From an uncultured Acidobacteriota bacterium (lineage in GTDB: Bacteria; Acidobacteriota; Blastocatellia; RBC074), in the NCBI GenBank assembly GCA_963796275.1, contig CAWCKY010000002.1:640001-704000 (forward strand): a DNA stretch of 64,000 nt, written 5' to 3'. The notes under the pieces are model-generated. The model was not told the DNA's origin. It saw only the letters and a program-made list of their open reading frames with translations, and made no database searches. This document shows, piece by piece, positions 42,352 to 64,000 of this stretch (position 1 is its first letter; the number at the start of each line of letters is the position of its first letter). The position numbers were made by a program, and so were the translations under genes.

Positions 42352-42358
42352 CTTTTAG

Positions 42359-43746: not shown

Positions 43747-45079
43747 TTATTTTTCCTTCGTGAAAACCCTCGCCCCACCGCCCCGTTTTAAGATCATCTG
43801 GTTTTTCGCGGCGTCGAACTCAAAAACGACCCGCCCGCCGAAGATTTGAAATTTATCCTGCGCCGTCGCTTCGAGCGGGGCAGCGCTTTCACTGCCCGGC
43901 TGAAAGAAAAGCGTCGCGCCGTCTCTGGTGATCGTAAATTTCACGGGGGCGTCGGGGCTCGAATAAACTCCGACGTATTTGTCCAGAACTTCCGGGCTGA
44001 CGGCGATCGATTCGAAGGCGGGAATCTCAAACGGTTTATTGTAGTAGATGTCGATAACGCCGCTCACAATATCCTTTACCGGGTAAACCTTCGCGTTCGT
44101 AGTGTAGGCGACCGCCAGCTTTTCTTCCGGCAGGTAAGCCAGCCACGCTCCGTAGTTGTCGCCCCCGCCCGTGTGCCCGTAGAAGGTCTTGCCGGCGAAC
44201 GTGAAGGTCACCATTCCGAGCCCCTCGCCGTCCCTCATCGTTTTCATCTGATCGAGGCTCTCCTGAGAGATCAATTTCCCGTCGAACAGCGCCTGGATGA
44301 ATTTGGCCAGGTCGTCCGGTGTCGAAACAATCGCCTGCCGAAGAGGATGCTCGGATGGGTTTCGGAACCCTGTTTCCAGTCGCTGCCGGTATTGATATAG
44401 GTAAGAGCTTCGTTTTTGTTCACATCGATGTTTCCGGTCGCGATGTATGTATCCTTGAGCCCGATCTTGGAGGTGATTCTTTCCTCGAGAGCTTCCTCGT
44501 AGGGTTTGCCGGTTAGCTTTTCAAGGATAAGACCTAAAAGGAAATAGCCGGAATTGCTGTAGGAATGCTTTGTGTCCGGCTCGAAATCAGGCGTGCCTTT
44601 GACGATCAGGGCGAGCATTTCATCCTTCGTTACTGGTCGTCTCCAGGTTTCCAGATTGCCTGATCGCGCCTTACGTTCGGGATACCGCTGCGATGCGAGA
44701 GGATTTGCACGATGGTAATTTTCTGGGCGTTCGGAACCTGCGGGAAGAATTTGTCGAGCGTGTCGGTCAGCTTCAGTTTTCCTTCCTCGACGAGCTGCAG
44801 GATCATCGCGGCGGTGAACATTTTTGTGATCGAACCGATCCGGAATCTGCTCGCCGCGGTCAAAGGTTTCTTTTCGGTTCCGTTGATCTGGCTGTAGCCG
44901 ATGGCGCGGGTGTAAAGAACGTTGCCGTCTTTGGCGATGGTCAGGCTCCCCATCGCCTTATTCTTTTCGGCGAGCCGGTCAAAAAACTGGTCGAGTTTGG
45001 CTTTGTCCAGCGTCTGTGCGTAGCCTGCGGTGAACAACGCCAGTGTCAGTAAAGTTGCGAATAATATTTTAATTTTCAT
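43747..45079 (-). pseudogene. Serine hydrolase (beta-lactamase-related family), broken into three ORFs
   Basis: FRIGSITK (SxxK), YSNSGY (YxN), GHTGG in successive frames; breaks near 44635 and 44335. Confidence 0.85.
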
Positions 45080-48256: not shown

Positions 48257-49108
48257 CTAATCGATTTTGCTGAGCGTCCTTTGAAGCTCGTCGAGCGCAT
48301 TATTGAATTCCGACCATGCCTTATTCATCGACTGTACCTGCTCCCCGAACTTGACGCGCTCTTCCATACGAATGTTGTATTGCTTCATGCGATTCTCGAT
48401 TTGGCATCGGAGATCTAATATCTCCACCTCAAGCTGTGCAATCAGTATCTCGTAACTGGCCAGTTCATCCTTCAGGCTGGCGATACACGAAGCACATTTC
48501 TGCGCGTCAGGCTTCCGTTCCTCCATATAAAGTAGGTCTGCCGTCATCTTCTGCTTCCCCTGTGCCCAGGCTTTCTTCTGCTCCTTGAGACTCATTTCGC
48601 GCTGCCACATCGCGATCTGGTTGTCCATCCGCACAAGCCGTTCGCGATTTGCGATCGTATCTTGACTGCTCCTGCCGATAGATTCTCTTAAATACTCATC
48701 AAGGTCTCGCAGATCGGCTTCAGGATCAAAGATACCGTTGCGAAGGCGGTCGTCGATCCTTTTGATCATGTTCAGGCGTGTGGTAACAATCGCTTCAAGC
48801 TGATCCTTCAACTGGAAGGAGGCGCGCACTGTCCTTCCAATGTTGCTCATCGTGGCGATTGCATTGTTCTGTTTCGCTACGAGGTCATCGGCGGCTTTGA
48901 GCACCCCGCCCAGTGTTGTGAGCTGCTCTACCAGCTTCTGGTAGTGCTCCATCCATCGAGCCGCCTCTTCGACTTTCTTTTCGGCTTGAAGCACGTATTG
49001 CGCTGGATCATAGACGGTCCATTGTGCCTGCGCTTCTTCCGGGGGAATGATCAGAATGCCGATGAACAACCCAAGTATGAGTTGACGAAGCAAAGATGCC
49101 TTTTTCAT
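48257..49108 (-). CDS. TrbJ/VirB5-like protein
   Basis: Signal peptide then QWTVYDPAQY, long coiled coil; sits between VirB4 and VirB6-like genes. Confidence 0.7.
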   Translation of the reverse strand: MKKASLLRQLILGLFIGILIIPPEEAQAQWTVYDPAQYVLQAEKKVEEAARWMEHYQKLVEQLTTLGGVLKAADDLVAKQNNAIATMSNIGRTVRASFQLKDQLEAIVTTRLNMIKRIDDRLRNGIFDPEADLRDLDEYLRESIGRSSQDTIANRERLVRMDNQIAMWQREMSLKEQKKAWAQGKQKMTADLLYMEERKPDAQKCASCIASLKDELASYEILIAQLEVEILDLRCQIENRMKQYNIRMEERVKFGEQVQSMNKAWSEFNNALDELQRTLSKID

Positions 49109-51969
49109 TGCTCCCCTCCTCTGACGGTTTCGTGTTGAAAGTCTAAAAGCGATTCATCCACTTCAATCAATCCTGCAGCGGCTAGTCCTCTCGGATAGAC
49201 AGCGGCGAGCCATCCGATCACATCAGCCAGCGGCCAGCCGGTGAGCGACTGCACCCGCGCCCTGGCGTTGCGTTCATCCGGGTTTGTGGCGAATGTCCAT
49301 AGCTCAGCCGGTGAGAGGTCCATCTGAATCATTTCGACGATCTGGTCGAAGCCCGATCCCAGCACCAATACATACTGGGCGTACTCGCCTCGAACATTCC
49401 TGATAGTGCCTATCGCGGCAGCAGCGTTGTCCGACAGCCCGGCGTCATCAATGAGCTTCGAGCAATCGCCTATTTGTTTGCCGATGATCTTTATCCCGGC
49501 GGTCCTGGTAATATCGTGCAGTTCCTCGAAATCCTCATAAGCTTGCGTCGCCAGCATCGTCACCGCGTTCTCTTTGCGCCCTTGTCGTGCACCTCGTTTG
49601 ATGACAGCTAGAATGTGGGGGTACTTGTCCCTGATCTTCCAGACCTCATCGAAGACGAGTAACACCGGCGCGCGCGTCCCGTCTTCTTTCAGCCGCCCGA
49701 TAGAGCGAACTACACGAGCTGCAACCCGTCCGGCCAGAGTCTCCCTCACGTCCTGTTGGAAGTTATCCAGGCTATCGAGCTCATACACGTCATATGGAGA
49801 ATCAGTGGCGAAATCGGGATGCGTGGGCGCATCGATCCAGGGATGGGCGCGGTACTTCTCAAGCGCCACTGCAAGCGTCGCGGCGCGGTCTCTCACTGCC
49901 GGCGCCTGGAAAGGATAGCTATCGAGCATCGCCAGCAGGTGCGAATGGGTCGGCTCATGTTTCGGCTTCCCGTGGCCGTTGCGAGGAACCTCATTCCGGT
50001 AGACCTCAGTCACCACATTGGTCAGGATGTCCTCGGCGATGTTGTCATCTGGCTTGACTCTCGCCAAACGCATCGCATCACCTACCACGAAAGCGATCTG
50101 AGTCTCATCGGGCGGCTCGCCCAACTCTAGCCCCGGATAATCCCAGATATTGATCGTGCGAGGCTCTCCGGCGATGAAACGCAGATGACGGCTCCCCACC
50201 ACATCTACGTGCGGGCCGAGCGATTCGCCGAAATCGACCGCTCGGACTCTCGCTTCTGGCAAGGTTGCCAGCACATCATTGATGATCCGTGCCATTAGCA
50301 CTGATTTGCCGGCGCCCGGTTGCCCTAACACTACGGCAAGCGGAGAAGCGATCTCTCCGCGGTCGAAGAAGTCCAGACCGATCAACCTCCCGGACGGTGT
50401 TGAACACAATGTGTGAGGTCTCCTGGCCCCGCTCCAGCTCGATTCGGTCGGAATGAGCGCGGCGAGTGAGCCGGCGACCTCTGTAATCTCCCTCCCTGTG
50501 GGCCGCCGGTCCGCTTCACCCGCCAGCCCCCGGTGATAGATGGCGCGTATACTGTCCGGGTCTTCACGCGCCGCCTCCACACCGGGGATAGCCTTCATCG
50601 CCGTCACCATCTGTTCGCAATAGTTGTCGAGAATCCTGAGCGACTCCCTCTTCTCTTCCCGCGTCCGCGCCGACGGGCTGTAGATAAGAGCGTAGAAACG
50701 AATTTGCACCAAAGCCTCGCGTGATCCGGTAACGTGCTCACGCACGTTCTCGAGGTCAGCGAGGGCCACCCTGGATTCCGGTGTCTGTTTCACTCTCCCA
50801 TCAGGGCGAATTGACGAACGGCGTAATTGCTTAATGCGCCGGTCGAGGAGCCTTGTCGCCTTATTCTGGTCAGGGTAGATGAACTCCGCGACGAGGGTAT
50901 GACGAAAATTGAGCGACGGATTGAGAGTCAGCGCTCGTAATGCGTCGGCGGCGACCGATGGCTGTGGAGGCGTGAACATCGAGACGACGGCCGCCGGATA
51001 CAAACCATGCATAACGTAATCTCCCTCGGCTCGGATCGACTCGCTGCACAAATAATCCCGCACGTCGAAGCCGTGGACATCGGGCAGGACTGGAATAGCG
51101 CGAGCATTCTGCTTGTGCCCGAGGTAGACGGCATCCCACAACTCTTCTCGACCAAAGCGCTGCAGCGACAACGGACATTCCCGTTCGATCAATCGGAAGA
51201 CCTTCTCGACGTTTCTTCTCGCTTCGCGTTCATCGGCAATGAGCCGCCGCACCACGCCGTCATCGGCCGTCTCCGTCCACTTTCTGTGGAGCAGCCGGGG
51301 AATGTCTGTGAGGCGTTGCCTGCGTAACTCCACCCAGACGGCGGGAATAAAGGCGCTCAGGCCACTGTTGGTGTCGTCGCCTTTGTGCTTGACCGGCACT
51401 CGCACCCAAAGCGAAAGTGTCTGATGCCGGTAGGCTCCCACCGCTGCCGCGCCTTGATAGAACTCTACATTATTCATATGCAGTCCCGAGGCCTCCGGGT
51501 GGGTTAATTCCCCATCTCCCCGCACCCGGAGATGGGCGAGGATCGCATGCCCCGGATCGGGGCCGGATGAATAACGGAATTGGATCACGGTACCCGGCGG
51601 TTTCCCAACCGCCAGCAGCCGCGCTAGTGCGTCACAGTTGGATTCGACAGTATGGTCGTGCGCGAGCATCGTCGGAGCGAGTTGTGATTTCCAGGCACAC
51701 GTATATGAGCCGTCGGCGTGCCGCAGAGCGTCTTCGCTGATGCCGACTATTGAAGAGTCCCGCTTTCGCCCCGGAGGCTTTGCCAGCCTCTTCCTCGCTT
51801 CTTCATCCCTTGCGATGCGCTCCTGCAGGCGACCATCGTCGCTCAGCTTCCAGACTGTCAGGTCCCGGCGCGTCTGACGGAGCAGAGGCAATAAGCGCAG
51901 CGCGGCGCCGATGCCGAATCCGATACCCGCGCCGGCGGAGATACCGCTGATGATCAATGAAGGATCCAT
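49105..51969 (-). CDS. virB4: VirB4/TraC family conjugative ATPase
   Basis: 954 aa; Walker A GQPGAGKS, Walker B LVFDEVW, RQGRKEN..LATQ. Confidence 0.88.
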   Translation of the reverse strand: MDPSLIISGISAGAGIGFGIGAALRLLPLLRQTRRDLTVWKLSDDGRLQERIARDEEARKRLAKPPGRKRDSSIVGISEDALRHADGSYTCAWKSQLAPTMLAHDHTVESNCDALARLLAVGKPPGTVIQFRYSSGPDPGHAILAHLRVRGDGELTHPEASGLHMNNVEFYQGAAAVGAYRHQTLSLWVRVPVKHKGDDTNSGLSAFIPAVWVELRRQRLTDIPRLLHRKWTETADDGVVRRLIADEREARRNVEKVFRLIERECPLSLQRFGREELWDAVYLGHKQNARAIPVLPDVHGFDVRDYLCSESIRAEGDYVMHGLYPAAVVSMFTPPQPSVAADALRALTLNPSLNFRHTLVAEFIYPDQNKATRLLDRRIKQLRRSSIRPDGRVKQTPESRVALADLENVREHVTGSREALVQIRFYALIYSPSARTREEKRESLRILDNYCEQMVTAMKAIPGVEAAREDPDSIRAIYHRGLAGEADRRPTGREITEVAGSLAALIPTESSWSGARRPHTLCSTPSGRLIGLDFFDRGEIASPLAVVLGQPGAGKSVLMARIINDVLATLPEARVRAVDFGESLGPHVDVVGSRHLRFIAGEPRTINIWDYPGLELGEPPDETQIAFVVGDAMRLARVKPDDNIAEDILTNVVTEVYRNEVPRNGHGKPKHEPTHSHLLAMLDSYPFQAPAVRDRAATLAVALEKYRAHPWIDAPTHPDFATDSPYDVYELDSLDNFQQDVRETLAGRVAARVVRSIGRLKEDGTRAPVLLVFDEVWKIRDKYPHILAVIKRGARQGRKENAVTMLATQAYEDFEELHDITRTAGIKIIGKQIGDCSKLIDDAGLSDNAAAAIGTIRNVRGEYAQYVLVLGSGFDQIVEMIQMDLSPAELWTFATNPDERNARARVQSLTGWPLADVIGWLAAVYPRGLAAAGLIEVDESLLDFQHETVRGGEQ

Positions 51970-51970
51970 T

Positions 51971-52315
51971 TCAATTCTCTTTGACGTTGACGACCCAGGC
52001 TCGCCTCGGCTGTCCCTCTATATCTCCGGGAAGTGAGTGTCGCTGGATCGGGTTAGTGAAGGCGGCGCGCAAACGGTGCTGCAGCCAGAAAGGGCGGCGA
52101 CCGATTCGCGCGTAGTTGAAAAACGCTATGGAGAATGCCCCGGCACCAAGTCCGCACCACAACTCCAGCGGCACTCCCCACAGCTTCAAGTTGAGTAAGA
52201 AAGGCACCGTATAGCTGACGAGCGCAGCGGCGAAGACGAACTTCCAGTCCTCGACACGGACGCCTAGTCGCGCTACCGGTAAATAGATGTTCGGCCTGAT
52301 GGGTCTTGGCCTCAT
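51971..52315 (-). CDS. VirB3/PrgI-like small membrane protein
   Basis: MRPRPIRPNIY.., two TMs, between pilin and VirB4; AAGGA RBS. Confidence 0.65.
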   Translation of the reverse strand: MRPRPIRPNIYLPVARLGVRVEDWKFVFAAALVSYTVPFLLNLKLWGVPLELWCGLGAGAFSIAFFNYARIGRRPFWLQHRLRAAFTNPIQRHSLPGDIEGQPRRAWVVNVKEN

Positions 52316-52332
52316 GATTCTTATTCCTTCAA

Positions 52333-52800
52333 TTACCAAGATACCGTATCGAGGTTGACGGCATTGCCCTGTGAGAAGCTGTAGATTAACGACAGGATCC
52401 CACCGATTCCCATTGCAAGACCGCCCCCGACCATCTGCCTTCCCCAGCTCTTCTCCATCATGTAGTTGACGGCTCCCCAACCGATCCCGGCCACGCCGAG
52501 CAAGAACAGTAGATTCCGCCCCCACCTGATGGCCTCGCGGACTCCGGAGCCCACCGCCTGATCGTTTTGACCGAAGATGCTTCCGCCCTGTACCTGCGCG
52601 AACGCCGGTTGCGCCAACGTCATGCCCACCAGCAGCGCCGAGGCGATCAGTGCCAGCGCCGGCTCGATCGATCGAACCAGCACGGCGAGCTGAATCACCC
52701 ACCGGCCCGCTCTGGCGGCCATCGAGCGTTCGAGCAGCTCGTCATCCACTTCACAGGCCGCAACGCGCGGACGAATCCCTCTCAAGCCTTCTCCGTTCAT
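52333..52800 (-). CDS. TrbC/VirB2-like pilin
   Basis: Long leader ending AQPAFAQ, two hydrophobic helices; first gene of operon with AAGGAG RBS. Confidence 0.72.
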   Translation of the reverse strand: MNGEGLRGIRPRVAACEVDDELLERSMAARAGRWVIQLAVLVRSIEPALALIASALLVGMTLAQPAFAQVQGGSIFGQNDQAVGSGVREAIRWGRNLLFLLGVAGIGWGAVNYMMEKSWGRQMVGGGLAMGIGGILSLIYSFSQGNAVNLDTVSW

Positions 52801-52986: not shown

Positions 52987-53769
52987 ATGAACGATAGAAA
53001 CCGGGTGAGAAGATTGAGATCGATCGGTGTGGCGCTGGCTCTGATCTTGGCGGCGGCACAGGCAAAAGCCCAAGGCAAGCAGCAGGATGACCACACGCGG
53101 CGAATGGCGGCCCGCATTGAGGCGAAGCATCTACGCTCGCGGCAAAACCTCGTTAAGCTGCTCCGCGAGCATCCTCAGTTCTGGCAGGAATTACTGGCAG
53201 TTGCGGAACGGCTGAAGACTGAACCTGCATGGCTGCTCAACGTGCTGGCGACAGAATCTCTGTTTGATCCGGCGACGCGCAACTCCCTTCCTGGACAGAC
53301 CGCCAGCGGCCTGATGCAATGGATCGAGAGCACGGCACGGAGCCTCGGGACGACAACCAGGGCCATCAGGCGCATGAGCCCGGTCGAGCAGTTGTCCTTG
53401 ATAGAAAAGTATTTCGCCCCGTTCCACGGCCGCCTCAACAGCATGGCCGACGTTTATATGGCCGTCTTTCGGGGCTTTATTCTTGATGGGAAAGACGAAA
53501 CCGTTATCGCCCCACTCAACAACTCGCGAAAAGAACAACGGATTTACAGGCTCAATAAATGGCTTGATTTAGATAAAGATCGGAAGATCACCAGGGGTGA
53601 GCTGGCTCTGGCGGCAACGCTGATAGGCAGGTTCCAACCTCAAGAGCCCACATCATCACTCCCCGGCAGGAATCTCAGCCCAACGCTGCTTGCACCCTCA
53701 GCCCCTCCTGACAGGAAGCCCGCGCCAACGCGATCGATCTATATTCGTCCAACCAAGCCCGTGGAATAA
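52987..53769 (+). CDS. VirB1-like lytic transglycosylase
   Basis: LATESLFDP (catalytic ES), ASGLMQW, C-terminal DLDKDRKITRGE. Confidence 0.78.
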   Translation: MNDRNRVRRLRSIGVALALILAAAQAKAQGKQQDDHTRRMAARIEAKHLRSRQNLVKLLREHPQFWQELLAVAERLKTEPAWLLNVLATESLFDPATRNSLPGQTASGLMQWIESTARSLGTTTRAIRRMSPVEQLSLIEKYFAPFHGRLNSMADVYMAVFRGFILDGKDETVIAPLNNSRKEQRIYRLNKWLDLDKDRKITRGELALAATLIGRFQPQEPTSSLPGRNLSPTLLAPSAPPDRKPAPTRSIYIRPTKPVE

Positions 53770-55121: not shown

Positions 55122-55904
55122 ATGAGAGCAAAGGTAAATACTCGCAACCTGCCGGCAACTCTCGATGGAGCCTCCGATGGAACGAAGCAGTCGTCAAGTC
55201 GGAGTGAGGTTCCGGAGGCGGTTGTCGCGCACTCGATTCCTCACGTCCTGCACCGCGACCCCGTAGACGTAAGGACGATCTTGAGTCTGACCTGGATGGG
55301 AATATTCTTCGCATTGCTCTTGCTCGCGAGTGTCGGCCTGAACGTCTTCCAATATATTCGCCGTCCCGATCGCATAATCATCGATCGATCGTCGGGCCAG
55401 GTCCTCATGATCAACGACCGGGAGTACGGGGAGACCGGAGCCGTCTCGGTCGGCCCGGACAGGCCCGGGGCGAAGGAGAAAGAATACATCAGTAATCAGT
55501 TCATCAAGGCGGTCTACGGTATCGACCCCGCCACACGGGCTAAAGACATGGAGAGGGCGATACGCATGATGGTTCCGGAATCCGCTGGTAAATTCGCCGC
55601 GTGGCTAAAGCAGACCGGGATACTGGACAAACAGCGAACCGAAAGCTGGCAGGTCGTGTGGACCCCACAACAAACAGAGATCGATCGGACCGACCCCTAC
55701 ACGGTGCGGATACTGGGGAGACAGCAGATCACCAAAGTGGTGGCCAACGCCGCTCAGCAGGAGGCTCGCCAACTCTCTTTAACGCTCAAGCTCGTGGCCG
55801 ATAAGCAAGGCCGCGCCGAGCACAACCTGATGTCAGGATTTCTCGTCGCCTGGTTCGACGAGAAGGAAGTGGTGCCGGACGGTAAGACGCCTGCTTCTCC
55901 GTAG
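55122..55904 (+). CDS. VirB8/TrbF-like protein
   Basis: Single TM then RPDRIIIDRSSG and an NTF2-like-sized periplasmic domain ending GFLV; first of the B8-B9-B10 order. Confidence 0.68.
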   Translation: MRAKVNTRNLPATLDGASDGTKQSSSRSEVPEAVVAHSIPHVLHRDPVDVRTILSLTWMGIFFALLLLASVGLNVFQYIRRPDRIIIDRSSGQVLMINDREYGETGAVSVGPDRPGAKEKEYISNQFIKAVYGIDPATRAKDMERAIRMMVPESAGKFAAWLKQTGILDKQRTESWQVVWTPQQTEIDRTDPYTVRILGRQQITKVVANAAQQEARQLSLTLKLVADKQGRAEHNLMSGFLVAWFDEKEVVPDGKTPASP

Positions 55905-55948
55905 CTATCAACGGTTCCAATTTGTTTCTCGATTTTAGGAGTAAAGAC

Positions 55949-57175
55949 ATGCTGCCTAGCAGTCGTAGTGTCGTTATTTTCGTCTCTACTATCGCCATGA
56001 CGCTGGCTCTAAGCCTGGTTGCCACCGCGCAAGAGAGGCGGGAGAGGCGAAGCACGGTCGATGAAGCGAAATCCCCGCCGATGCCTGAGCACACAGCCAC
56101 TCCCACGCCCGTCAAACTCATCGAGCCACCCGGAGTCGACTATTTCTCTGGCGAAGCGAAGGTGGCCGTCAGCGGAAATCAGGTTCCTGTTATCCGCCTG
56201 GGATTATCGCAGTATGCGGCGACGATCATCGAATTCCCATCATCCGACCGGCTGTTCAATCTGATACCAGGCGACTCGAACCTGGTGACCATCGAGGAAT
56301 CGCCGACCAAGGAGACGGACCATTTCCTTATCGTTCGCCCCGGTGATGGGTTCGCCTCTCCGGCGACCATGTCCAAAGCCCGGCGCGAGCCGGCGACCTC
56401 GGTCATCGTGCAAATGCAGTCCGGACTGGTGGTCACGTTTCTCTTCTATCCCGTCAGGCAACTGAATGAACACGCCCACCGTGTCGTCGTGACATACGAC
56501 CGTAGCGAAGTAGTCGCGGTCAGGCGCGCCGCAGGACTTGCCGTCAATCTCGATAGCACAAACCGCGTACCCAGGCCACGCACTAATTCCCTGCGAATCG
56601 CCACGCCATCCGAATCGCCCGCTCCGGACGAAACAACTCCCGCGCAGGCCCCGGCCCCCCAGGCCCCCAGGGCTGTGGCCGATCTGGCCGAGATCGATAC
56701 TTCCGAGCCTCCAGCCAAGCGCCTCGGGAAGAGCCGAGATCCGGCCCGCACCGCCAGCCTCGCCCTGACCGAGGCAACCAAAACTCCCGAAATTTTTAAA
56801 AAGTGGAGCGAGACGGTCCACGGCCTGTCCCTCTCGGTCTCACCCATTCGCGAAGTGGACAAACACTCACAGCTCGTGGTCGTCGCCGTCAAGAACACGA
56901 GAAAGAGGGATGCGCGCATCGTGCCGGGTCAACCATCAATCTCGCTTGAAACGGTCGACAGCAAGAAACGTCCGATTCAGATAGAAGCGATCAGGACGCT
57001 CGCAGTGGACACGACGGTCGTGGATGAGGTGATCCGAGGCGGAGAGACTCAGTACTACGCGGTCGTTTACGAAACTCCCATTATGGGAGCCAGGCAGCGG
57101 TTGCGCGTATCCGTCGGACATATCACGGCAGCTGACGAACCGGCGACCGTGAATCTGACCTCATCGAATCGCTGA
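55949..57175 (+). CDS. VirB9/TrbG-like outer-membrane-complex protein
   Basis: AGGAG RBS, signal peptide, ATIIEFP..HFLIVRP..TSVIVQMQSG, Pro-rich linker. Confidence 0.6.
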   Translation: MLPSSRSVVIFVSTIAMTLALSLVATAQERRERRSTVDEAKSPPMPEHTATPTPVKLIEPPGVDYFSGEAKVAVSGNQVPVIRLGLSQYAATIIEFPSSDRLFNLIPGDSNLVTIEESPTKETDHFLIVRPGDGFASPATMSKARREPATSVIVQMQSGLVVTFLFYPVRQLNEHAHRVVVTYDRSEVVAVRRAAGLAVNLDSTNRVPRPRTNSLRIATPSESPAPDETTPAQAPAPQAPRAVADLAEIDTSEPPAKRLGKSRDPARTASLALTEATKTPEIFKKWSETVHGLSLSVSPIREVDKHSQLVVVAVKNTRKRDARIVPGQPSISLETVDSKKRPIQIEAIRTLAVDTTVVDEVIRGGETQYYAVVYETPIMGARQRLRVSVGHITAADEPATVNLTSSNR

Positions 57176-57205
57176 TCTCCAACCTACCGGAGAAAGGACT
57201 AGCAG

Positions 57206-58625
57206 ATGGACTCGAACGAATCCAACGACCTTTATCACAACGGCGCCGCCGGCGTCACCGAAGGAGCTCCGGGCGCACAAGACAATGACCTTGACCACCT
57301 GGACATCGAGGATGACGAGGATGATAGGCCGGGGGGTGAAGGGAGAGAGCCCGCCCGCAAAGGCAAGAGTAAGCGGCTCGTGGGCGGAATATTCATCCTC
57401 CTGATTCTCGTCGCTGCGGGAGCCGGCTTGTGGGTGATCTCCAACAGCCGGAAAACGAAGATCCAGATTCCGGTGCGGGACAATGCCAGGAAAACCGATC
57501 AATCAACTGCCCGCGGCAATGACGACTCCAATAGTATGACGGCGCAAGCTATTGAATCTGTCCGCAATTCGATTGCGACCCCGACGCCTGTGGCATCAGG
57601 ATCACCCATTCCCCCATCCGGAGTGAAAGGGACAACCGTGACCTCGAACACCCCTGTCACGGATGTTATTGGAGCCGGGAACACCGTCCGGTCACCCACG
57701 AACGATACAGCCGCCGGGCAAAGCGGCGTATCTTCGGGCGCGGGGGCGTCAAGGCGTGATGAAATCGCCTTCCAGCGCAATCCCGAGCGATCGATCCGGT
57801 GTGCCCCGACTCCCACTCCGGTCCCGGTGCGTCAATCACTCAGAGGAGAACCCGCTACTCAGCCAATACTTGAGCCTGCCGCACTCAAGCGCGTACTCGA
57901 CTCGGGTGTTGTGCTGCCTCCGTTCGGCGCGTTTCTCCCGGTCAGGACATTAGGGGCGATCTACACCCTGCGCCAGAGCATGGCCCGCTTCGAATTGACT
58001 CGAGACGTGCGTGGACAGGGATGGGAGCTGCAGAAAGGCACGCTTCTCATCGGACAACTACAAGGAAGCGAGCAGGACCGCGCATACATCAGCATGACGG
58101 GATTCATAGATCCATCCTCAGGAAAACTGGTAAAGGTGGATGGTGATCTCTTAGGAACCGACGGCGCGCCGGGCATCAAAGGCAAGCGGCACAAAGTGAG
58201 CAGCACCTGGAAGCGGGTCCTCGACCGCGCGGTGACCAGCGGCGTCGCCCTGGGACAGGCGGCGCTCTCAAGAGGGAATTCAACCACGATAGTTCTGCCT
58301 GGCGCGGTAGCTCCAGAGCTTACAGCCCTTACCTCGACCAGTAACCGTGAGTTCGTGGAGGTACCGGCAGCTACGCCCGCTTACCTTCTGATCACCCGCT
58401 TGCCGGAACAGGCGCCAGGCGTCGATGCGCCGCAGGTGGCTGCGGGAATGGCAGAGAACTCAACCTCTGCTTCTAACAACAATGGCGACAAGCTGCTCTC
58501 CGATGAAGAGGTGGCCCGGCTGATGGAATCCGGTTCGCCGGAAGAGATTCGCGCGGCGATGCCTCGCATGAGCTCTCGAGTTGCGGCAGCTCGCCGAGAC
58601 AGTGTTGAAGGAGACGAACAAGTAA
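57206..58625 (+). CDS. VirB10/TrbI-like protein
   Basis: TM, Pro/Thr linker, KGTLLIGQL..DRAYI..GTDGAPGIKG; removing one base near 58575 gives ..ELRQLAETVLKETNK* ending in TAATG overlap with next ATG. Confidence 0.72.
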
Positions 58626-59653
58626 TGCAACCGAAAGATCATTCAAGACCAAGCGTCAATCCGCGCCGCCTGCTCGAACAAAAAGGGATCGACGAGCTGG
58701 CTCAAACACTCGCCGATACCGGCTACCTGATCCAGCGACAGCTGCTCGTTGACCTTGCGCACACGCTGCGAAGCCGCAAGCCGCTGCTGATCGAAGGGCC
58801 TCGGGGCGGGGGGAAGACGGCGCTCGCCGAAGCCCTGGCCGAAGCCTGCAATCTGTCGACCTTCTACCTGCAGGGAATGGAGGGGCTGACCCTGGCCGAC
58901 GTCTTGTATGACTGGGACCGCGAGGGACAGACGCAGATGGTCCGGCAGGAGCTGGCCGCGGGAACTAAACTCAAAGACGCTCAGGACAAGCAATTCACGC
59001 GTGAATACTTGATTCTGGGTGAAGCCTTAGGGGCGTTCAATTACGCCGGTTCGCACGACGACGTGCCGGTGTTGATCGTCGACGAAGCTGACAAGCTTCA
59101 AGAGAAGGTCGAGGACATGCTCCTGCAATTGCTCGGCCGCGGTTATGCCCATGTGCCGCGCTTCGGCGACATCGGCGTGAGAGATCCCGCGCGGTGGCCG
59201 GTGGTGATCCTGCTTTCGAACGATATCCGGCACGACCTGTCGGCCCCACTGCGCTCGCGCTGTCTCTATACCTGGCTCGATCCGCCTTCCCCCCGCGAAG
59301 AAGTGCGAATCCTTAGGGCGCGAGCCCCGCTGGCTGGCCGGGAATTGGTGACCGGCGTTACCAAGCTCATCAACTGCATCAGGCGGGACATGCCTGGGGT
59401 CAGGGACAAGCCCGGGATCCGTGAGTCCATCGACCTGATCAGGGCCCTGACCCTGGCCGGAGTGAAGAAACTGACGGGGGACGTGATCGGCGAACACTTG
59501 TGCTACCTGGGCAAACGGCACAAGGAGCTGCTCAATCTGCGGCAGGGCCTCGCAAGACTTGAATTCGCCGTGCATCAGCCGGATGTAGAGATTGATGAGT
59601 GGGTGGCATGGGCCTTCGAGGATAAGGCCAGTGTGCTCGAACAGGCGGCCTGA
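58625..59653 (+). CDS. CoxD/MoxR-type AAA+ ATPase
   Basis: PLLIEGPRGGGKT, LQGMEGL..LYDWD, VLIVDEADK, LSN..DLSAPLRSRC, KPGIRESIDL. Confidence 0.85.
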   Translation: MQPKDHSRPSVNPRRLLEQKGIDELAQTLADTGYLIQRQLLVDLAHTLRSRKPLLIEGPRGGGKTALAEALAEACNLSTFYLQGMEGLTLADVLYDWDREGQTQMVRQELAAGTKLKDAQDKQFTREYLILGEALGAFNYAGSHDDVPVLIVDEADKLQEKVEDMLLQLLGRGYAHVPRFGDIGVRDPARWPVVILLSNDIRHDLSAPLRSRCLYTWLDPPSPREEVRILRARAPLAGRELVTGVTKLINCIRRDMPGVRDKPGIRESIDLIRALTLAGVKKLTGDVIGEHLCYLGKRHKELLNLRQGLARLEFAVHQPDVEIDEWVAWAFEDKASVLEQAA

Positions 59654-59663
59654 ACTGGAGAAG

Positions 59664-60332
59664 ATGATGGCTCTGAAGGCGCCGGCGCTATCGCCCATGA
59701 CCATAGTTTGCACGACGGCCTTGATCGTCATCGCGGCGTTTGTCGCCGCGAACTACTTCGGGCTGGGCGCAAAAGTGGTTGATCCCCAAGTCACGATGGA
59801 GCCCGGCCGGAGCGCGGCGGGGAAACAAGGATCCGTGCGGCAGGCCGCTATTCCAACAGTGATCGACGGCGAGGTGGTGCGGACTGCGGAGCGCATCACC
59901 GAGGCCACGGCGCTCACTTTTTCGGCCGCCCTTTACGCGGCAAACGAACAGCTCCGGGGGCGCACTCCGCGTACGGTGCGGGACTTGTTGGACGGAGTGG
60001 CCAGGCAAAACCTGATGCCGCCGGGTCTTGCGTTTACTCAGGTCGAAGGTGTGCTCGCTTCATCCTGCCCTCTGCAGTCGGCCGGCTGCGGAACCCTATC
60101 GGTTCGCTATCGCCCCGTCCCTTTGGGCATCGAGGTCGTCTCGATCGGAAGCAAACCCCAGGACGGCCCCGCGCTGATCGTGCGCCTGCCGGATGAGACG
60201 TCGGACCAGGGCGAAGCCAAATTGTTCATCGCCGATAGCCTGAACGTTGTGAAAGTGCCGGATCCGTTTGCGCCGGCGGCAGTGGTGATCGCATCCGGTT
60301 GGAGTCCTGAACGCTGGCGCTCGCTCAAATAA
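59664..60332 (+). CDS. Single-TM hypothetical protein, pseudopilin-like
   Basis: N-terminal TM, helix then GRTPRTVRDLL. Confidence 0.65.
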   Translation: MMALKAPALSPMTIVCTTALIVIAAFVAANYFGLGAKVVDPQVTMEPGRSAAGKQGSVRQAAIPTVIDGEVVRTAERITEATALTFSAALYAANEQLRGRTPRTVRDLLDGVARQNLMPPGLAFTQVEGVLASSCPLQSAGCGTLSVRYRPVPLGIEVVSIGSKPQDGPALIVRLPDETSDQGEAKLFIADSLNVVKVPDPFAPAAVVIASGWSPERWRSLK

Positions 60333-60349
60333 TCCCTGACGAGGTTTTC

Positions 60350-62503
60350 ATGGCCCTGGATCAATTCCTCAAGCGAATAGACGCCCGCTACCGGATACCA
60401 CGCCCCGCAAACGCCCTCTATCTGGACTCCTACCAGGCCGGATTTCGTCTCATGCGCGATGTGGGCGAAGGGATGCTGCTCGTCGCCTGCGGAGTGGGCA
60501 CCGCCTGCATTCTCTGGCAGATCGCGAATGTGCTGCTGCGGATCGGCGTCGAGATCCACGAATACATGCTCGCCGCTATGCCCGTCGCTCTGCTGATCAG
60601 TGTGGCCGAAGCCTTGTCGCTGGTGATTCCCTATTACCGAATCACACAGCGCTTGACCCACGGTTCGGCGCGATGGGCTGATGTGGAAAATCTGAAAGCG
60701 CTCGGACTGGCTCATGATAATCGGCGATTGTTGCCGCCCGGAGCACTGCGGATCGGGAGGCTCACGCGCCGGTATGAACTCGTCCTGCCGTTCGGCCAGG
60801 CCCTCCGCCATGTGGCGATCTTCGGCCCCCCCGGTTCCGGCAAATCGTCGAGCTTTTTTATGCCCATGGCCCGCGATTGGGCGAATCAGGGTTCCGCCAT
60901 CTTTCTGGATCCGAAAGGCGAGCTCTTCAAGCACACCGCCTGCCATTTCAGAAGAAGATACCGGGTCGACCTCTCCGATCCGAGATTGTCGGATCGATGG
61001 AACTTCGTCTCCGCCTGCAAGGGCGACGCGGAGACGGCACACGAGATCGCATCGATCATCGTCGGATTCGACCCGAACAAAGAATCGCACTTCGATCCGT
61101 TCTGGGCGCAGGCGGAGACCGCGCTGCTGACCGCGGTCCTGTTGCACCTGCCACAAATCGCGGTTAGCCCCACTCCGGCGATGATCGCCGAATACATTGC
61201 CAGCTCCGACCTGGCCTGGATCGATCGAGAGATGTCGCAATCGCCCGACCAGGAAGCCCGAGTCTATTGGGGGCTTTTCCAAAAAGCCGATAAGGAGAAG
61301 ACACAGGGAGGCGTCTTCACCGGGCTTGGAGTGAAACTCGCTCCATTCAGGTCGCCGCATGCCATGGCCGTCCTTCAATCTATAAGCCCGGAGGAACGCG
61401 CGCGGGGGCTGCGCGAGATCGATCTGTCCGACCTTCGCCAGCCCGGAACCGCCATCTATGTCGTCATTCCCGAGGGCGATGCGACTCGTTATCAGGTTGT
61501 GCTCTCGATCCTCTTCGGCCTGGCGGCATCCATGACGCGGAAGACGAGCCACGACGAGAACGGCGCTCTGGTGCTGCTGGCGCTCGACGAAGCAGGAAAC
61601 ATACCGCTGCATGGTTTGAGCGAAATGCTCGGCGTGGGCCGTGGGAGGCGTGTCAGCATCGTCCTGGGTTACCAGAACATCGGGCAACTCTACAAGCAAC
61701 ACGGACTCAACGGCGCACACGCGATCTTAGGCTCCGTCGGGACGATGATCTTTCTTCCGGGGCTCGACTCCGAGACGGCGCAGTATGCCGTCAAACGGAT
61801 CGGGCGCACCACGGTCCTGCAACATACTACTGTCGATTCGCCGGGGACCTCGCTGGACAACGAGCGGTGGGCCGAGACCGGGCGAGACCTGATCGACGCC
61901 GCGGAACTGCGGCAGATGGCGGAGTATCTGCAAGCCGTGGCAATCACCACCACAGCTCCGCCGATCAAGTTCGGGTTTCCCGAATATGAGAGGAGCGGTC
62001 GGCTGGCTCGGGCGCTCCCCCGCGAGTTGGGGCAACCGATTTCGCTGAAGGAGGCCATCAAGGCGGCAATGCCGCCGCGGGTGGAGGCGACGGCGGTGGC
62101 GGTGGACACGTATCCCGCCGACTTCCCCTCATCGGGATTCGGTGACGTCCCTTCGCGCCCACAGGAAAAGCGAGCGCCTGAGAGGCTGGCGAATAAGAAT
62201 CAGCTCTCGCTCTTCGACGGCGGCGGCGCGGGAAACGGCAAGCGCGCCACGCAAGATAAGCTCAAGCCCGGCGATCAAGATGACGCAATTTATTTCGGCG
62301 GCAAGCACCAAACCAGGAATTCACTCCCCGGCCTTTCGGAGATTGCCGATGAGAACGACGACAAACAGCGGGCGAGCCGGTTAGATCCGGATCCCGCGCC
62401 GCCCACGGAGCCCGCCCAGGCGACGAGGTCCCGGATCAGTGCGGCCAGGAAGCGCTCCAACCGGCGCGGATTCGGAGAAGCGCCGCCGCAGGAGGAGACG
62501 TGA
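60350..62503 (+). CDS. virD4: Type IV coupling protein VirD4/TraG
   Basis: Two N-terminal TMs, THGSARWA, GPPGSGKS, DPKGEL, LALDEAGN, YQNIGQL. Confidence 0.93.
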   Translation: MALDQFLKRIDARYRIPRPANALYLDSYQAGFRLMRDVGEGMLLVACGVGTACILWQIANVLLRIGVEIHEYMLAAMPVALLISVAEALSLVIPYYRITQRLTHGSARWADVENLKALGLAHDNRRLLPPGALRIGRLTRRYELVLPFGQALRHVAIFGPPGSGKSSSFFMPMARDWANQGSAIFLDPKGELFKHTACHFRRRYRVDLSDPRLSDRWNFVSACKGDAETAHEIASIIVGFDPNKESHFDPFWAQAETALLTAVLLHLPQIAVSPTPAMIAEYIASSDLAWIDREMSQSPDQEARVYWGLFQKADKEKTQGGVFTGLGVKLAPFRSPHAMAVLQSISPEERARGLREIDLSDLRQPGTAIYVVIPEGDATRYQVVLSILFGLAASMTRKTSHDENGALVLLALDEAGNIPLHGLSEMLGVGRGRRVSIVLGYQNIGQLYKQHGLNGAHAILGSVGTMIFLPGLDSETAQYAVKRIGRTTVLQHTTVDSPGTSLDNERWAETGRDLIDAAELRQMAEYLQAVAITTTAPPIKFGFPEYERSGRLARALPRELGQPISLKEAIKAAMPPRVEATAVAVDTYPADFPSSGFGDVPSRPQEKRAPERLANKNQLSLFDGGGAGNGKRATQDKLKPGDQDDAIYFGGKHQTRNSLPGLSEIADENDDKQRASRLDPDPAPPTEPAQATRSRISAARKRSNRRGFGEAPPQEET

Positions 62504-63033
62504 ATCAGGCCGCGAGCAAAAGGCGGGTTCGAATGTCTCTCGTGATGTTCGGCGCATCGGCGGCTTCGCTCATTATCGCCTACGCGGCCGCGACCATCCT
62601 GGAGGTTTGGCAGCTGCGCGAGCAGACACCCCGACTCGCCGCCGACAGCATGGTGAAAACCCTCCGCGCCCATCACCGGCAAACGGGGCGATTCCCGAAC
62701 GATTTCCGTGAGTTGGAGGCGAGAGTCTGGAAACACAAAACCATGCCTGATTTCGGAGCTGACGGACGCAGTCTCTCGATAGCCAACTATTACTACCTTT
62801 ATCACCCGGTCAATGCAGGCGCCTGTACGATCTGGATCATCCCGGTGGGTCCGCGACGCGAAGAGGGCTCGACACACTTTTTGCTGCTCTATCCGGATAG
62901 CCTGCGACGATGGAAAGGCCCGCCGCTCTCGCTCGACGAGATCGGAAAACTTCGCAGCGTGCCGCAGTACGGCGAGATGAACATCCTGGGAATGACCGAG
63001 CAACGGCCGATCGATCTGGTTAAGAGGAAGTAG
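62500..63033 (+). CDS. Single-TM hypothetical protein, pseudopilin-like
   Basis: GTG start overlapping virD4 stop; TM, helix then TGRFPNDFREL. Confidence 0.68.
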   Translation: MNQAASKRRVRMSLVMFGASAASLIIAYAAATILEVWQLREQTPRLAADSMVKTLRAHHRQTGRFPNDFRELEARVWKHKTMPDFGADGRSLSIANYYYLYHPVNAGACTIWIIPVGPRREEGSTHFLLLYPDSLRRWKGPPLSLDEIGKLRSVPQYGEMNILGMTEQRPIDLVKRK

Positions 63034-63044: not shown

Positions 63045-64000
63045 ATGCGCGCGGTGGTCAGGGCGGTACAATCCGGGGGAAAAGGCGTCTCTTACCAGGC
63101 GCGCTATATCGCCGAGTCCGAGCTCAACCGCGAGCGTGAAGGGGAGAAGACGCGCCCGCTATTTAGCAACCGAGGCCATGACAGCCTCACCTATCGCGCA
63201 GCCAACCAGTTCCTGACCGGTGGAGAAGGAGATCCTCTGAAGAAGGACCTGATTCACCTAATCGTCAGCTTTGAAGAGAAGGATTTCGAGGCCCTCAGAG
63301 CGCACGATGATGAGCGCATAGCAGCGTTGCGGGAGGTCGCCCGCGAGGCGATGGAAGGTACGAAGGCCGATCTCCGCGTCCGCGACTGGAGATGGGTCGC
63401 CGGCATTCACCTCAATACGGATAATCCTCATATTCACTTTTTGATTCACAAGGAGATCGCAAGCGACGACCCGGAGCGCCTCCGGTTGGGCAATATCCCG
63501 AAACGGCTGCTGCCAAGCCAAGTGACGGGCCAGGATGGAGAGACTCACCCCACCGAGGGTGTAATCGGTGAGAATTTCGTCCGGGCGTTGGAGAGCGGGA
63601 TCAGCCTGCAAGCTCTGCGCCAGGGAAAGCTCGCGCCGTCACCGGCGCTCGCCTCGCTGCTAAAGGAGCTGGAGGTCAGCCGGACCGGACGCCAGGTGCT
63701 CAATTTTGAAGCCTCGTTGTACGAGGTCTCACTCCACAAAACCCAGGTGAACAAACAGAGGCGGACAAGCTACGAATCGCTTACCGCCCACGAACGCCGC
63801 TATCTCTCGGAGAGGATCGAGGAGCAAACACGGTCTCTCGCCCGCGAACGCGGTTCCGACGAGTCTGTTCTGCTCGAAGCGAATCGGAAACGTCCTTCGC
63901 TCGACGGACGCGGCCTGACTCGAGAGATCATCGCCAGAGGACAGGAGACCGCCTCCGGAGAGCCGCCCGACGTTCTTCACGACCCGAGGGCCGTCTTCAA
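63045..64000 (+). CDS. MOBP-family relaxase, 3'-truncated by window (absent from ORF track)
   Basis: GAGGTG RBS, ATG 63045, frame open to window end; ARYIA, HLIVSF, WVAGIHLNTDNPHIH (HUH motif). Confidence 0.9.
   Translation, partial: MRAVVRAVQSGGKGVSYQARYIAESELNREREGEKTRPLFSNRGHDSLTYRAANQFLTGGEGDPLKKDLIHLIVSFEEKDFEALRAHDDERIAALREVAREAMEGTKADLRVRDWRWVAGIHLNTDNPHIHFLIHKEIASDDPERLRLGNIPKRLLPSQVTGQDGETHPTEGVIGENFVRALESGISLQALRQGKLAPSPALASLLKELEVSRTGRQVLNFEASLYEVSLHKTQVNKQRRTSYESLTAHERRYLSERIEEQTRSLARERGSDESVLLEANRKRPSLDGRGLTREIIARGQETASGEPPDVLHDPRAVF

What the first reader, a model, noticed from the sequence alone, without database searches (positions are those of the whole stretch)
55122..63033. 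Conjugative T4SS with a CoxD/MoxR-type AAA+ ATPase in the VirB11 position
Seen: gene order is virB8-like, virB9-like, virB10-like, AAA+ ATPase, hypothetical, virD4, hypothetical, relaxase. The ATPase is coupled to virB10 by a TAATG overlap. Its motifs (LQGMEGL, DEADK, SAPLRSRC) are those of CoxD-like MoxR proteins, not the VirB11/PilT RecA-fold family. No VirB11 and no adjacent VWA gene is visible. Known: VirB11 normally follows VirB10, and MoxR/CoxD ATPases normally act with a VWA adaptor. Inference: non-orthologous replacement of VirB11, or a dedicated assembly/remodelling ATPase, defining a possibly undescribed mating-pair-formation class in this lineage.
Basis: partly seen in the sequence, partly recalled or inferred. 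Interest (0 to 1): 0.85.

Follow-up and report, generated by a model that had tools for sequence, protein, structure and literature searches.

The report
MoxR-type ATPase built into acidobacterial conjugation system
A soil acidobacterium's DNA-transfer (conjugation) machine always carries an extra chaperone-type ATPase between its VirB10-like and VirD4 genes, a part not described in known conjugation systems, though there is no evidence that it "replaces" VirB11.

Summary
The gene order is real, and the ATPase (58625-59653) is a MoxR-class AAA+ protein. It matches Pfam AAA_5, has intact Walker A/B, sensor-1 and Arg-finger residues, and its AF2 model (pLDDT 95) best matches NorQ and CbbQ. Its nearest sequence relatives are CoxD-like ATPases that sit beside CO-dehydrogenase and VWA genes.

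It is a core, co-inherited gene of a very divergent conjugative T4SS found only in Blastocatellia among the genomes searched. All 32 related loci place it among T4SS genes. Its divergence tracks VirB4 (r 0.99) and VirD4 (r 0.96). No VirB11 and no VWA gene lies in the element, and the downstream partner gene is not a VWA fold.

One detail is wrong. As the sequence stands there is no TAATG stop-start overlap, because VirB10-like and the ATPase form one 815-aa ORF. Relatives (14 of 14) have two genes, and 3 of 3 near-identical metagenome contigs lack one base at 58573-58577. The fusion is therefore private to this assembly, either an error or a mutation.

"VirB11 replacement" is weak, because VirB11 is rare outside MPF-T. 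The best reading is a VWA-independent, T4SS-dedicated remodelling or assembly ATPase. This is a new variant of a known kind, with interest about 0.55.

The parts
46371..48224 (-). 617-aa conserved ORF at the end of the VirB4 operon (VirB6 position; function unassigned)
   Evidence: No Pfam or NCBIfam hit. N-terminal parts are conserved next to the TrbJ-like gene in related loci.
48257..49108 (-). TrbJ/VirB5-position coiled-coil protein (283 aa)
   Evidence: Weak NCBIfam TrbJ match (E 0.0029, below cut-off). Conserved beside VirB4 in related loci.
49105..51969 (-). VirB4-family ATPase (954 aa), very divergent
   Evidence: NCBIfam TraC-F-type E 4e-20 and VirB4_CagE E 8.5e-18, both far below cut-off. 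At most 23% identity to any PLSDB plasmid.
51971..52702 (-). conserved 243-aa ORF upstream of VirB4
   Evidence: No family hit. Conserved in place in related loci.
52987..53769 (+). SLT lytic transglycosylase (VirB1-like role)
   Evidence: Pfam SLT 28.1 bits against a cut-off of 21.3.
55122..55904 (+). VirB8-like bitopic protein
   Evidence: 4 of 18 homologues weakly hit Pfam VirB8. Atlas look-alike clusters carry VirB8/DotI/TraE in part of their members. The PDB profile search found nothing.
55922..57175 (+). secreted 417-aa protein in the VirB9 position; lineage marker of this T4SS
   Evidence: No Pfam hit (0 of 18) and no PDB profile hit. Atlas lead DUF4138 only. Found in 9 of 401 Acidobacteriota genomes, always with the AAA+ gene nearby.
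57206..58625 (+). VirB10-like (TrbI/TraM) protein with an acidic cytoplasmic N-tail, a TM helix, a P/S/T linker and a C-terminal barrel domain; its frame runs on into the ATPase in this assembly
   Evidence: Pfam TraM 25.2 and TrbI 23.9 bits. Alignment A5. In relatives the tail ends '...PELRRIAEAVLKE...*', which matches the window's +1 frame.
58573..58577 (.). site of one extra base relative to relatives; it puts the VirB10-like gene in frame with the ATPase
   Evidence: 3 of 3 metagenome contigs crossing the site (runs X17, X2, X1) lack one base here. 14 of 14 related loci have a separate VirB10 stop.
58625..59653 (+). MoxR-class (AAA_5; CoxD/NorQ/CbbQ-like) AAA+ ATPase, 342 aa, with its own AGGAG 11 nt upstream of the ATG
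59664..60332 (+). gene X: N-terminally anchored 222-aa protein, always downstream of the ATPase; not a VWA protein
   Evidence: Alignment A2. AF2 model pLDDT 83.7: TM helix, long helix and beta-sheet. No PDB fold match, best E 0.47. No Pfam, NCBIfam or PADLOC hit.
60350..62503 (+). VirD4 coupling protein (717 aa)
   Evidence: Pfam T4SS-DNA_transf 125.5 bits, TraG-D_C 69 bits, TrwB_AAD_bind 64.8 bits.
62500..63033 (+). gene Y: conserved 177-aa N-terminally anchored protein
   Evidence: No family hit. Conserved after VirD4 in related loci.
63045..64000 (+). relaxase N-terminus; the ORF runs on about 5.6 kb past the window (about 2176 aa)
   Evidence: Pfam Relaxase 27.2 bits and MobL 27.5 bits. 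Continuation in L021:2-5578. No further Pfam domain was found there.

Best explanation
The gene at 58625-59653 encodes a cytoplasmic MoxR-class AAA+ ATPase of the CoxD/NorQ/CbbQ branch. It has become a fixed, vertically co-inherited core gene of a deep-branching conjugative T4SS/ICE family of Blastocatellia (Acidobacteriota).

Shown: its class, its intact catalytic residues, its strict T4SS context, its co-divergence with VirB4 and VirD4, and the lack of VirB11 and of any VWA partner.

Inferred: like other MoxR ATPases it forms a hexameric ring that remodels a client protein. Here it would work without a VWA adaptor, using its clade-specific N-terminal (about 50 aa) and C-terminal extensions to engage a cytoplasmic part of the machine. 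Candidates are the VirB4/VirD4 base or the conserved acidic N-tail of the VirB10-like protein. It would thereby assist assembly or activation of the channel.

It is an addition to a VirB11-less lineage rather than a replacement of VirB11. The single 815-aa VirB10-AAA frame in this assembly is a private one-base difference. The ATPase has its own ribosome-binding site and start.
For: Class:
- AAA_5 47.4 bits against a cut-off of 22.
- Invariant Walker A (G58, G61, G63, K64), Walker B (D153, E154), N199 and R212 across 51 homologues.
- AF2 model pLDDT 95, with an insert after strand 2 and a beta-hairpin before the sensor-1 strand.
- Foldseek top hits are NorQ (E 6e-12, TM 0.75-0.80 on target length), CbbQ2 and cso-CbbQ.
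- The nearest named family, NCBIfam MadB, matches all 51 of 51 homologues.
- The best PLSDB matches (at most 37% identity) are MoxR ATPases beside CO-dehydrogenase genes.
- The genome's own 294-aa paralogue sits in a CoxL-XdhC-MocA-AAA-VWA(MadC-like)-XdhC cluster.

Dedicated to the T4SS:
- 18 of 18 loci from genome contigs and 14 of 14 loci from the genome search have T4SS genes next to the AAA gene. 12 and 9 of them show the full B10-AAA-X-D4 order, down to 33-38% AAA identity.
- 14 of 14 places holding the B9-position marker have the AAA gene within about 3 kb.
- In a tree of 169 rows, the 29 T4SS-context rows and the 20 CODH-context rows lie on opposite sides of one branch (SH-like support 100). 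The T4SS clade holds a further 50 cluster representatives at 50% identity.

Core gene:
- It has the highest median identity to the window of the eight genes compared: 58%, against 49% for both VirB4 and VirD4.
- Its identity correlates with VirB4 (r 0.99, n 20) and VirD4 (r 0.96, n 26).

No VirB11 and no VWA.

Separate gene: 14 of 14 relatives have a VirB10 stop -4 to +13 nt from the AAA ATG. The relatives' tail matches the window's +1 frame. 3 of 3 contigs lack one base at the site. AGGAG lies at 58609-58613.
Against: - No experiment or interaction evidence exists, and the client protein is unknown.
- Every characterised close relative (CoxD, NorQ, CbbQ) works through a VWA partner, so a VWA-less mode is an assumption.
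- Gene X's globular part is probably periplasmic. This follows from the positive-inside rule applied to the K/R-rich N-termini in alignment A2, so X is unlikely to be the adaptor.
- The element in this genome may be decaying. The two other copies carry several frame breaks, including in the AAA gene, and the window copy has one.
- Context is known only for Blastocatellia-labelled or unlabelled loci. The 50 further cluster representatives in the clade have no genomic context.
Confidence: 0.6

Rival explanations
1. Functional replacement of VirB11. The AAA+ hexamer docks under the VirB4/VirD4 base and energises substrate transfer or the pilus-to-transfer switch. VirB10 acts as the energy sensor, as VirB11 does in MPF-T systems.
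For: It sits directly after, and is tightly coupled to, the VirB10-like gene in 14 of 14 relatives. No VirB11 is present in the genome's element. It evolves in step with VirB4 and VirD4. The VirB10-like N-tail carries a conserved acidic motif.
Against: VirB11 is rare outside MPF-T (19%; PMC4027160, passage read), so most T4SS classes work with no VirB11-like ATPase and nothing needs replacing. The fold is MoxR-class, not a PilT/VirB11 RecA-type traffic ATPase. The VirB10-like domain's best Pfam match is the Bacteroides-type TraM. No test of interaction succeeded.
Confidence: 0.2
2. The ATPase is not part of the transfer machine. It serves DNA processing (relaxosome), regulation, element maintenance or anti-defence, and merely travels in the operon.
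For: No direct link to any T4SS protein was shown. MoxR-class ATPases occur in many unrelated systems (searches show only generic matches). Two neighbouring small proteins (X, Y) are of unknown function.
Against: Its position is fixed in the middle of the Mpf operon between the VirB10-like gene and VirD4 in 21 of 32 loci. It is as conserved as VirB4 and VirD4, or more so. PADLOC gave only short P-loop matches.
Confidence: 0.12
3. The 815-aa VirB10-AAA fusion is real in this strain, either as a functional fusion protein or as a sign that this copy is a pseudogene.
For: The sequence as given has one open frame, 57206-59653. The other two copies in the same genome also have frame breaks in B10, AAA and X.
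Against: 14 of 14 relatives have separate genes. The relatives' VirB10 tail is encoded in the window's +1 frame. 3 of 3 near-identical contigs from three studies lack the extra base. A fusion would place a cytoplasmic ATPase at the periplasmic/outer-membrane end of VirB10 (inference). Frame breaks concentrated in the most conserved, multi-copy genes are what cross-copy polishing errors would give (inference).
Confidence: 0.08

Closest known systems
CoxD / 'MadB'-type MoxR ATPases of molybdo-enzyme (CO dehydrogenase) maturation clusters
   Same: They are the closest sequence relatives: 30-37% identity, and NCBIfam MadB is the best model. They share the AAA_5 architecture and catalytic residues.
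   Different: The score is 126 bits against the family cut-off of 475. It forms a separate clade. It has extra N- and C-terminal segments (342 aa against about 295 aa). It has no adjacent VWA (CoxE/MadC) or CODH genes, whereas 17 of 19 CoxD-like loci have the VWA gene and 11 of 19 have CoxL alongside.
NorQ and CbbQ (CbbQ/GvpN/NorQ group of MoxR AAA+)
   Same: They are the best structural matches: Foldseek E 6e-12 to 3e-11, TM 0.72-0.80 on target length. They are hexameric remodelling ATPases (from the entry titles; the mechanism is recalled).
   Different: Only 16-19% identity. Both act through VWA partners (NorD, CbbO), which are missing here. The context is a T4SS, not nitric-oxide reductase or Rubisco.
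VirB11 / TraJ / DotB traffic ATPases of T4SS
   Same: It is a cytoplasmic ATPase encoded next to virB10 in a T4SS operon.
   Different: It belongs to a different superfamily branch: there is no T2SSE match and the fold is MoxR-class. VirB11 is in any case uncommon outside MPF-T.
Known MPF classes (T, F, I, G, B, C, FA, FATA)
   Same: It has VirB4, VirD4, a relaxase, a VirB10/TraM-like protein, a VirB8-like protein and an SLT.
   Different: VirB4 is at most 23% identical to any PLSDB plasmid and far below all NCBIfam VirB4 cut-offs. The B9-position, X and Y proteins have no family. The conserved MoxR ATPase is not among the components named in the passages read of Guglielmini 2012 and 2014.

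Membership tests
MoxR-class AAA+ (Pfam AAA_5; CbbQ/NorQ/CoxD type) | Pfam AAA_5 above the gathering score | tested here: met
   47.4 bits against 22.
MoxR-class AAA+ (Pfam AAA_5; CbbQ/NorQ/CoxD type) | Walker A, Walker B, sensor-1 Asn and Arg finger conserved | tested here: met
   G58, G61, G63, K64, D153, E154, N199 and R212 are invariant in 51 sequences.
MoxR-class AAA+ (Pfam AAA_5; CbbQ/NorQ/CoxD type) | Fold with a helix-2 insert and a pre-sensor-1 beta-hairpin, similar to solved MoxR members | tested here: met
   The model shows strands 95-97 and 129-131 with helices 99-121 between strand 2 and helix 2, and a hairpin at 174-184 before strand 193-198. Top PDB matches are NorQ and CbbQ. Naming these elements as the clade's inserts is my reading.
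MoxR-class AAA+ (Pfam AAA_5; CbbQ/NorQ/CoxD type) | Cognate VWA-domain partner encoded alongside | tested here: not met
   No VWA_2, VWA_CoxE or VWA hit in the element. The neighbours have no VWA Pfam hit. Gene X is not a VWA fold.
CoxD / NCBIfam MadB equivalog | Score above the curated cut-off | tested here: not met
   126.1 bits against 475. Even the genome's own CODH-linked paralogue scores only 283.7.
CoxD / NCBIfam MadB equivalog | Context of molybdo-enzyme (CODH/XDH) genes and a VWA partner | tested here: not met
   The window context is a T4SS. The CODH/VWA context holds for the other clade.
VirB11 / T2SSE traffic ATPase | Pfam T2SSE (PF00437) domain | tested here: not met
   No T2SSE hit on the protein. 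The only genomic hit is on contig C6.
Conjugative T4SS (locus level) | VirB4 ATPase | tested here: inconclusive
   Significant but sub-threshold matches: TraC-F-type E 4e-20 and VirB4_CagE E 8.5e-18, with cut-offs of 567-643 bits.
Conjugative T4SS (locus level) | Type IV coupling protein and relaxase | tested here: met
   T4SS-DNA_transf 125.5 bits against 20.1. Relaxase 27.2 bits against 24.6.
Conjugative T4SS (locus level) | Assignment to one of the eight MPF classes (CONJscan profiles, VirB4 phylogeny) | not testable with these tools
   No CONJscan or MacSyFinder was available. VirB4 is at most 23% identical to PLSDB plasmids.

The most novel reading that the evidence does not exclude
This Blastocatellia T4SS is an undescribed mating-pair-formation class. 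Its fourth, essential ATPase is a VWA-independent MoxR-class AAA+ ring that directly remodels or energises the channel, for example through the acidic cytoplasmic tail of the VirB10-like protein or the VirB4/VirD4 base. That would be a new mode of action for MoxR proteins and a new kind of T4SS motor, functionally analogous to VirB11.
Probability: 0.25. Interest if true: 0.75.

Novelty: new variant of a known kind. Interest (0 to 1): 0.55.

Why it matters
T4SS are thought to run on VirB4, VirD4 and sometimes VirB11. A conserved MoxR-class AAA+ gene inside a T4SS operon would add a new kind of ATPase to conjugation machines. It would also give a natural case of a MoxR protein working without a VWA adaptor.

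It marks a conjugative element family that is multi-copy in this genome, in a poorly studied soil phylum whose gene-transfer machinery is almost unknown. The family was seen in 9 of 401 sampled Acidobacteriota genomes, all in one class.

The practical caveat also matters. The apparent VirB10-ATPase fusion in this assembly should not be annotated as a fusion protein without read-level confirmation.

Tried and rejected
- Complex prediction of the ATPase with the VirB10-like N-tail (residues 1-62): no verdict, score 0.00, controls not run. This is not evidence either way.
- Sequence search of PDB with the ATPase: only short P-loop matches to midasin and p97.
- PDB profile searches for the B8-like and B9-position proteins: nothing meaningful.
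- Literature on 'MadB' as an AAA ATPase: three searches found only unrelated MadB proteins, so what the NCBIfam name stands for remains unknown to me.
- Literature on a MoxR ATPase in T4SS or conjugation, or on Blastocatellia conjugation: 5 papers hold all the terms and none is about this by title or abstract. In some searches, none of the listed papers combines the terms.
- PADLOC: only short P-loop hits, so a defence role was rejected.
The single proteins P0170 and P0275 gave nothing, or only 30%-identical loci that I did not analyse. The context of the more distant clade members is therefore untested.
- Sequencing runs: no run holds half or more of the stretch's words. The strain's own reads were not identified, so the extra base could not be checked in the source data.
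- att repeat search from tRNA-Pro (42278-42352): no match of 14 nt or more in the next 41.5 kb. The element's ends are undefined.
Supplements of papers were not consulted.
Full report
**What is in the sequence.**

Between 46.4 kb and the end of the window lies a divergently arranged T4SS locus.
- On the minus strand there is a 617-aa ORF, a TrbJ-like coiled-coil protein, a 954-aa VirB4-family ATPase and a 243-aa ORF.
- On the plus strand there is an SLT transglycosylase, then a VirB8-like protein (55122-55904) and a secreted 417-aa protein in the VirB9 position.
- These are followed by a TrbI/TraM-like VirB10 protein, an AAA_5 ATPase and a 222-aa anchored protein X.
- The operon ends with VirD4, a 177-aa anchored protein Y and a relaxase.
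- The relaxase ORF continues 5.6 kb past the window, giving about 2176 aa.

The support for these labels varies.
- VirD4 and the relaxase pass Pfam cut-offs.
- VirB4 is significant but far below the NCBIfam cut-offs.
- VirB10-like has marginal TraM and TrbI hits.
- 'VirB8-like' has only weak support: 4 of 18 homologues hit Pfam VirB8, best E 0.0066, plus an Atlas lead.
- 'VirB9-like' has none: Pfam 0 of 18, no PDB profile hit, and only an Atlas lead to DUF4138.

**The TAATG overlap is not there as the sequence stands.**

The TAA at 58623-58625 is out of frame with the VirB10-like reading frame. That frame runs on through the ATPase as one 815-aa ORF, 57206-59653.

Three lines of evidence show that two separate genes are the normal state.
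- In all 14 of 14 related loci where both gene ends could be read, the VirB10-like gene has its own stop between -4 and +13 nt of the ATPase ATG.
- The relatives' C-terminal tail ('...IRAAMPRMTPELRRIAEAVLKEQGR*') continues in the window not in frame 0 but in frame +1 ('ELRQLAETVLKETNK*'), which ends at that TAA.
- Laying public soil-metagenome contigs on the stretch, 3 of 3 contigs that cross the site lack one base at 58573 or 58577. These come from runs X17, X2 and X1 (three studies) and have 3-9 mismatches each.

No run could be shown to be the source sample. The extra base is therefore either an assembly or polishing error, or a private mutation.

The ATPase has its own AGGAG 11 nt upstream of its ATG, and homologues are stand-alone proteins. 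Of the best 120 listed homologues (69-88% identity), most are about 342 aa long and cover the query in full, starting at the same methionine.

**What the ATPase is.**

- It matches Pfam AAA_5.
- Across 51 homologues down to 27% identity, the Walker A residues (G58, G61, G63, K64), Walker B residues (D153, E154), N199 and R212 are invariant.
- The AlphaFold2 model is confident (pLDDT 95, pTM 0.90). It shows an insert after strand 2 and a beta-hairpin before the sensor-1 strand.
- Foldseek against the PDB ranks the NorQ hexamer and NorQ-NorD complexes first (E 6e-12 to 1e-11, TM 0.75-0.80 on target length), followed by CbbQ2 and carboxysomal CbbQ.
- A plain sequence search of PDB gave only P-loop matches.
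- The nearest named family is NCBIfam 'MadB family AAA-type ATPase', at 126 bits against a cut-off of 475. All 51 of 51 homologues hit it.
- In PLSDB the best matches (at most 37% identity) are MoxR ATPases beside carbon-monoxide-dehydrogenase genes.
- The genome's own 294-aa paralogue lies in a CoxL - XdhC - MocA - AAA - VWA (MadC-like) - XdhC cluster.

**Is it dedicated to the T4SS?**

The genome-contig scan returned 18 loci, all but three of them labelled Blastocatellia or Acidobacteria.
- 12 of the 18 show the full B10-AAA-X-D4 order.
- 4 are cut by contig ends but are consistent with that order.
- 2 (L016, L019) carry deletions.
- All 18 of 18 have T4SS neighbours.

I fetched fourteen further loci around genome-search hits in eight other genomes. 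Some may overlap the first set. All 14 of 14 again have T4SS neighbours, and 9 have the full order, at AAA identities down to 33-38%. One of them, L061, has a different arrangement: B4-TrbJ-B6-gap-AAA-X.

I used the B9-position protein as an independent marker of this T4SS lineage. It occurs in 9 of 401 sampled Acidobacteriota genomes (14 places, all in the window's class). In 14 of 14 places a T4SS-type AAA hit lies within about 3 kb.

The wider tally is 113 of 401 genomes at E<=1e-20, and it mixes two tiers. The second tier consists of proteins of about 300 aa. In the 19 loci laid for that tier, the AAA gene is followed by a VWA gene in 17 and flanked by CoxL in 11. One of these loci, L038, is from the unpublished genome G049. 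The count is 16 of 18 without it.

I built a FastTree of 169 rows, made up of four groups.
- The window's ATPase.
- 28 T4SS-context ATPases.
- 20 CODH-context ATPases.
- 120 of the 150 listed 50%-cluster representatives, excluding those outside 270-460 aa.

Locus ATPases with short HSPs or internal stops were also left out. The tree gave two results.
- The T4SS and CODH groups lie on opposite sides of one branch (SH-like support 100).
- The clade spanned by the T4SS rows holds 50 further representatives and none of the CODH rows.

Where those representatives carry names, they are Blastocatellia or Pyrinomonadaceae.

**Core-gene behaviour.**

Median identity to the window across the loci is as follows.

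| Gene | Median identity |
|---|---|
| AAA | 58% |
| B8 | 52% |
| VirB4 | 49% |
| VirD4 | 49% |
| B10 | 40% |
| Y | 40% |
| X | 40% |
| B9 | 39% |

AAA identity correlates with VirB4 (r 0.99, n 20) and VirD4 (r 0.96, n 26). The gene has therefore been inherited with the machine and is under constraint at least as strong as that on the known motors.

**VirB11 and VWA.**

- The only T2SSE-family match in the 9.46-Mb genome is on contig C6.
- I did not run a T2SSE search on the relatives' loci. However, every gene between VirB4 and the relaxase there is a homologue of a window gene that has no such domain.
- VWA_2, VWA_CoxE and VWA models find nothing on the window's contig except window 5753-6067, about 50 kb from the T4SS and therefore presumably chromosomal and unrelated to it.

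Gene X always follows the ATPase.
- Its AF2 model (pLDDT 83.7) is a TM helix, a linker, a long helix and a small beta-sheet.
- It has no significant PDB fold match, best E 0.47, and no MIDAS-like motif in alignment A2.
- Its K/R-rich N-terminus ahead of the TM helix suggests that the globular part is periplasmic. This is an inference from the positive-inside rule.

X is therefore not the missing VWA adaptor.

**How it most likely works.**

The following points are shown:
- It is an intact MoxR-class ATPase.
- It is fixed in the Mpf operon.
- It co-diverges with VirB4 and VirD4.
- It has no VWA or VirB11 partner.
- It has clade-specific N-terminal (about 50 aa) and C-terminal extensions relative to the CoxD-like proteins.

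The following are inferences:
- It is a cytoplasmic hexamer that remodels a T4SS component during assembly or activation.
- It binds its client directly through those extensions.

Candidate clients are VirB4 or VirD4, or the acidic, motif-bearing cytoplasmic N-tail of the VirB10-like protein. A complex prediction with that tail gave no verdict.

[quoted passage not shown] In addition, gene order varies even within MPF-T (PMC3548315, passages read). A functional analogy remains possible but untested.

**Novelty.**

- VirB4 is at most 23% identical to anything in 72,556 PLSDB plasmids.
- No PLSDB plasmid carries an orthologue of the ATPase.
- Full-text searches found no paper linking MoxR ATPases to T4SS or conjugation, and none on Blastocatellia conjugation, among the results listed.
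- The only acidobacterial T4SS mentioned in the 2012 survey was classed as MPF-T.

I rate this a new variant of a known kind: a conjugative T4SS with an added, conserved MoxR-class ATPase. Whether the whole system is a new MPF class could not be tested here.

**Caveats.**

- The genome holds three copies of the element. The C4 and C3 copies have frame breaks in the AAA gene, in X and, in C3, in B10.
- The element's ends are not defined.
- The context of the more distant clade members is unknown.

Noticed in passing
G000:C4:1513001-1533000 (L053) and G000:C3:54001-74000 (L054): There are two more copies of the same T4SS element in this genome. The C3 copy is 88-90% identical in VirB4 and AAA but has several frame breaks (B10, AAA, X, p243). 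The C4 copy has a break in AAA near residue 232 and stops in X. This could be decay, or cross-copy polishing errors.
   Followed up: partly
window 5453-7740 (minus strand): A VWA_2 match lies at 5753-6067, inside the 445-aa ORF 5453-6790. This ORF is adjacent to a 317-aa ORF (6787-7740), so it looks like an ordinary chromosomal MoxR/VWA-type operon, about 50 kb from the T4SS.
   Followed up: no
window 42278-42352: tRNA-Pro (GGG) lies about 4 kb upstream of the first T4SS gene and is a possible integration site. No direct repeat of 14 nt or more was found in the following 41.5 kb, and no integrase was recognised among the ORFs scanned.
   Followed up: partly
window 63045-64000 plus L021:2-5578: The relaxase ORF is about 2176 aa long. 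Only the N-terminal relaxase/MobL domain is recognised. The remaining 1858 aa have no Pfam hit.
   Followed up: partly
window 44630-45079 (minus strand): A 149-aa ORF matches only the first third of Pfam Beta-lactamase (PF00144, serine hydrolase family). It is probably a truncated gene.
   Followed up: no
L004, L007, L013: Three loci carry this element at 58-76% AAA identity. They sit on MAG contigs labelled Gammaproteobacteria, Clostridia and Heliobacteriaceae. This is either mis-binning or mislabelling, or transfer beyond Acidobacteriota.
   Followed up: no
G000:C4:800001-808000 (L052): The NCBIfam 'MadB' (AAA) and 'MadC' (VWA) models match the CoxD/CoxE-position genes of an aerobic CO-dehydrogenase-type cluster. 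I could not find what the Mad name refers to.
   Followed up: partly
L016 and L019: These are variant elements with internal deletions. L019 lacks B10 and the N-terminal two thirds of the AAA gene. L016 joins a truncated AAA gene to a truncated VirD4.
   Followed up: no
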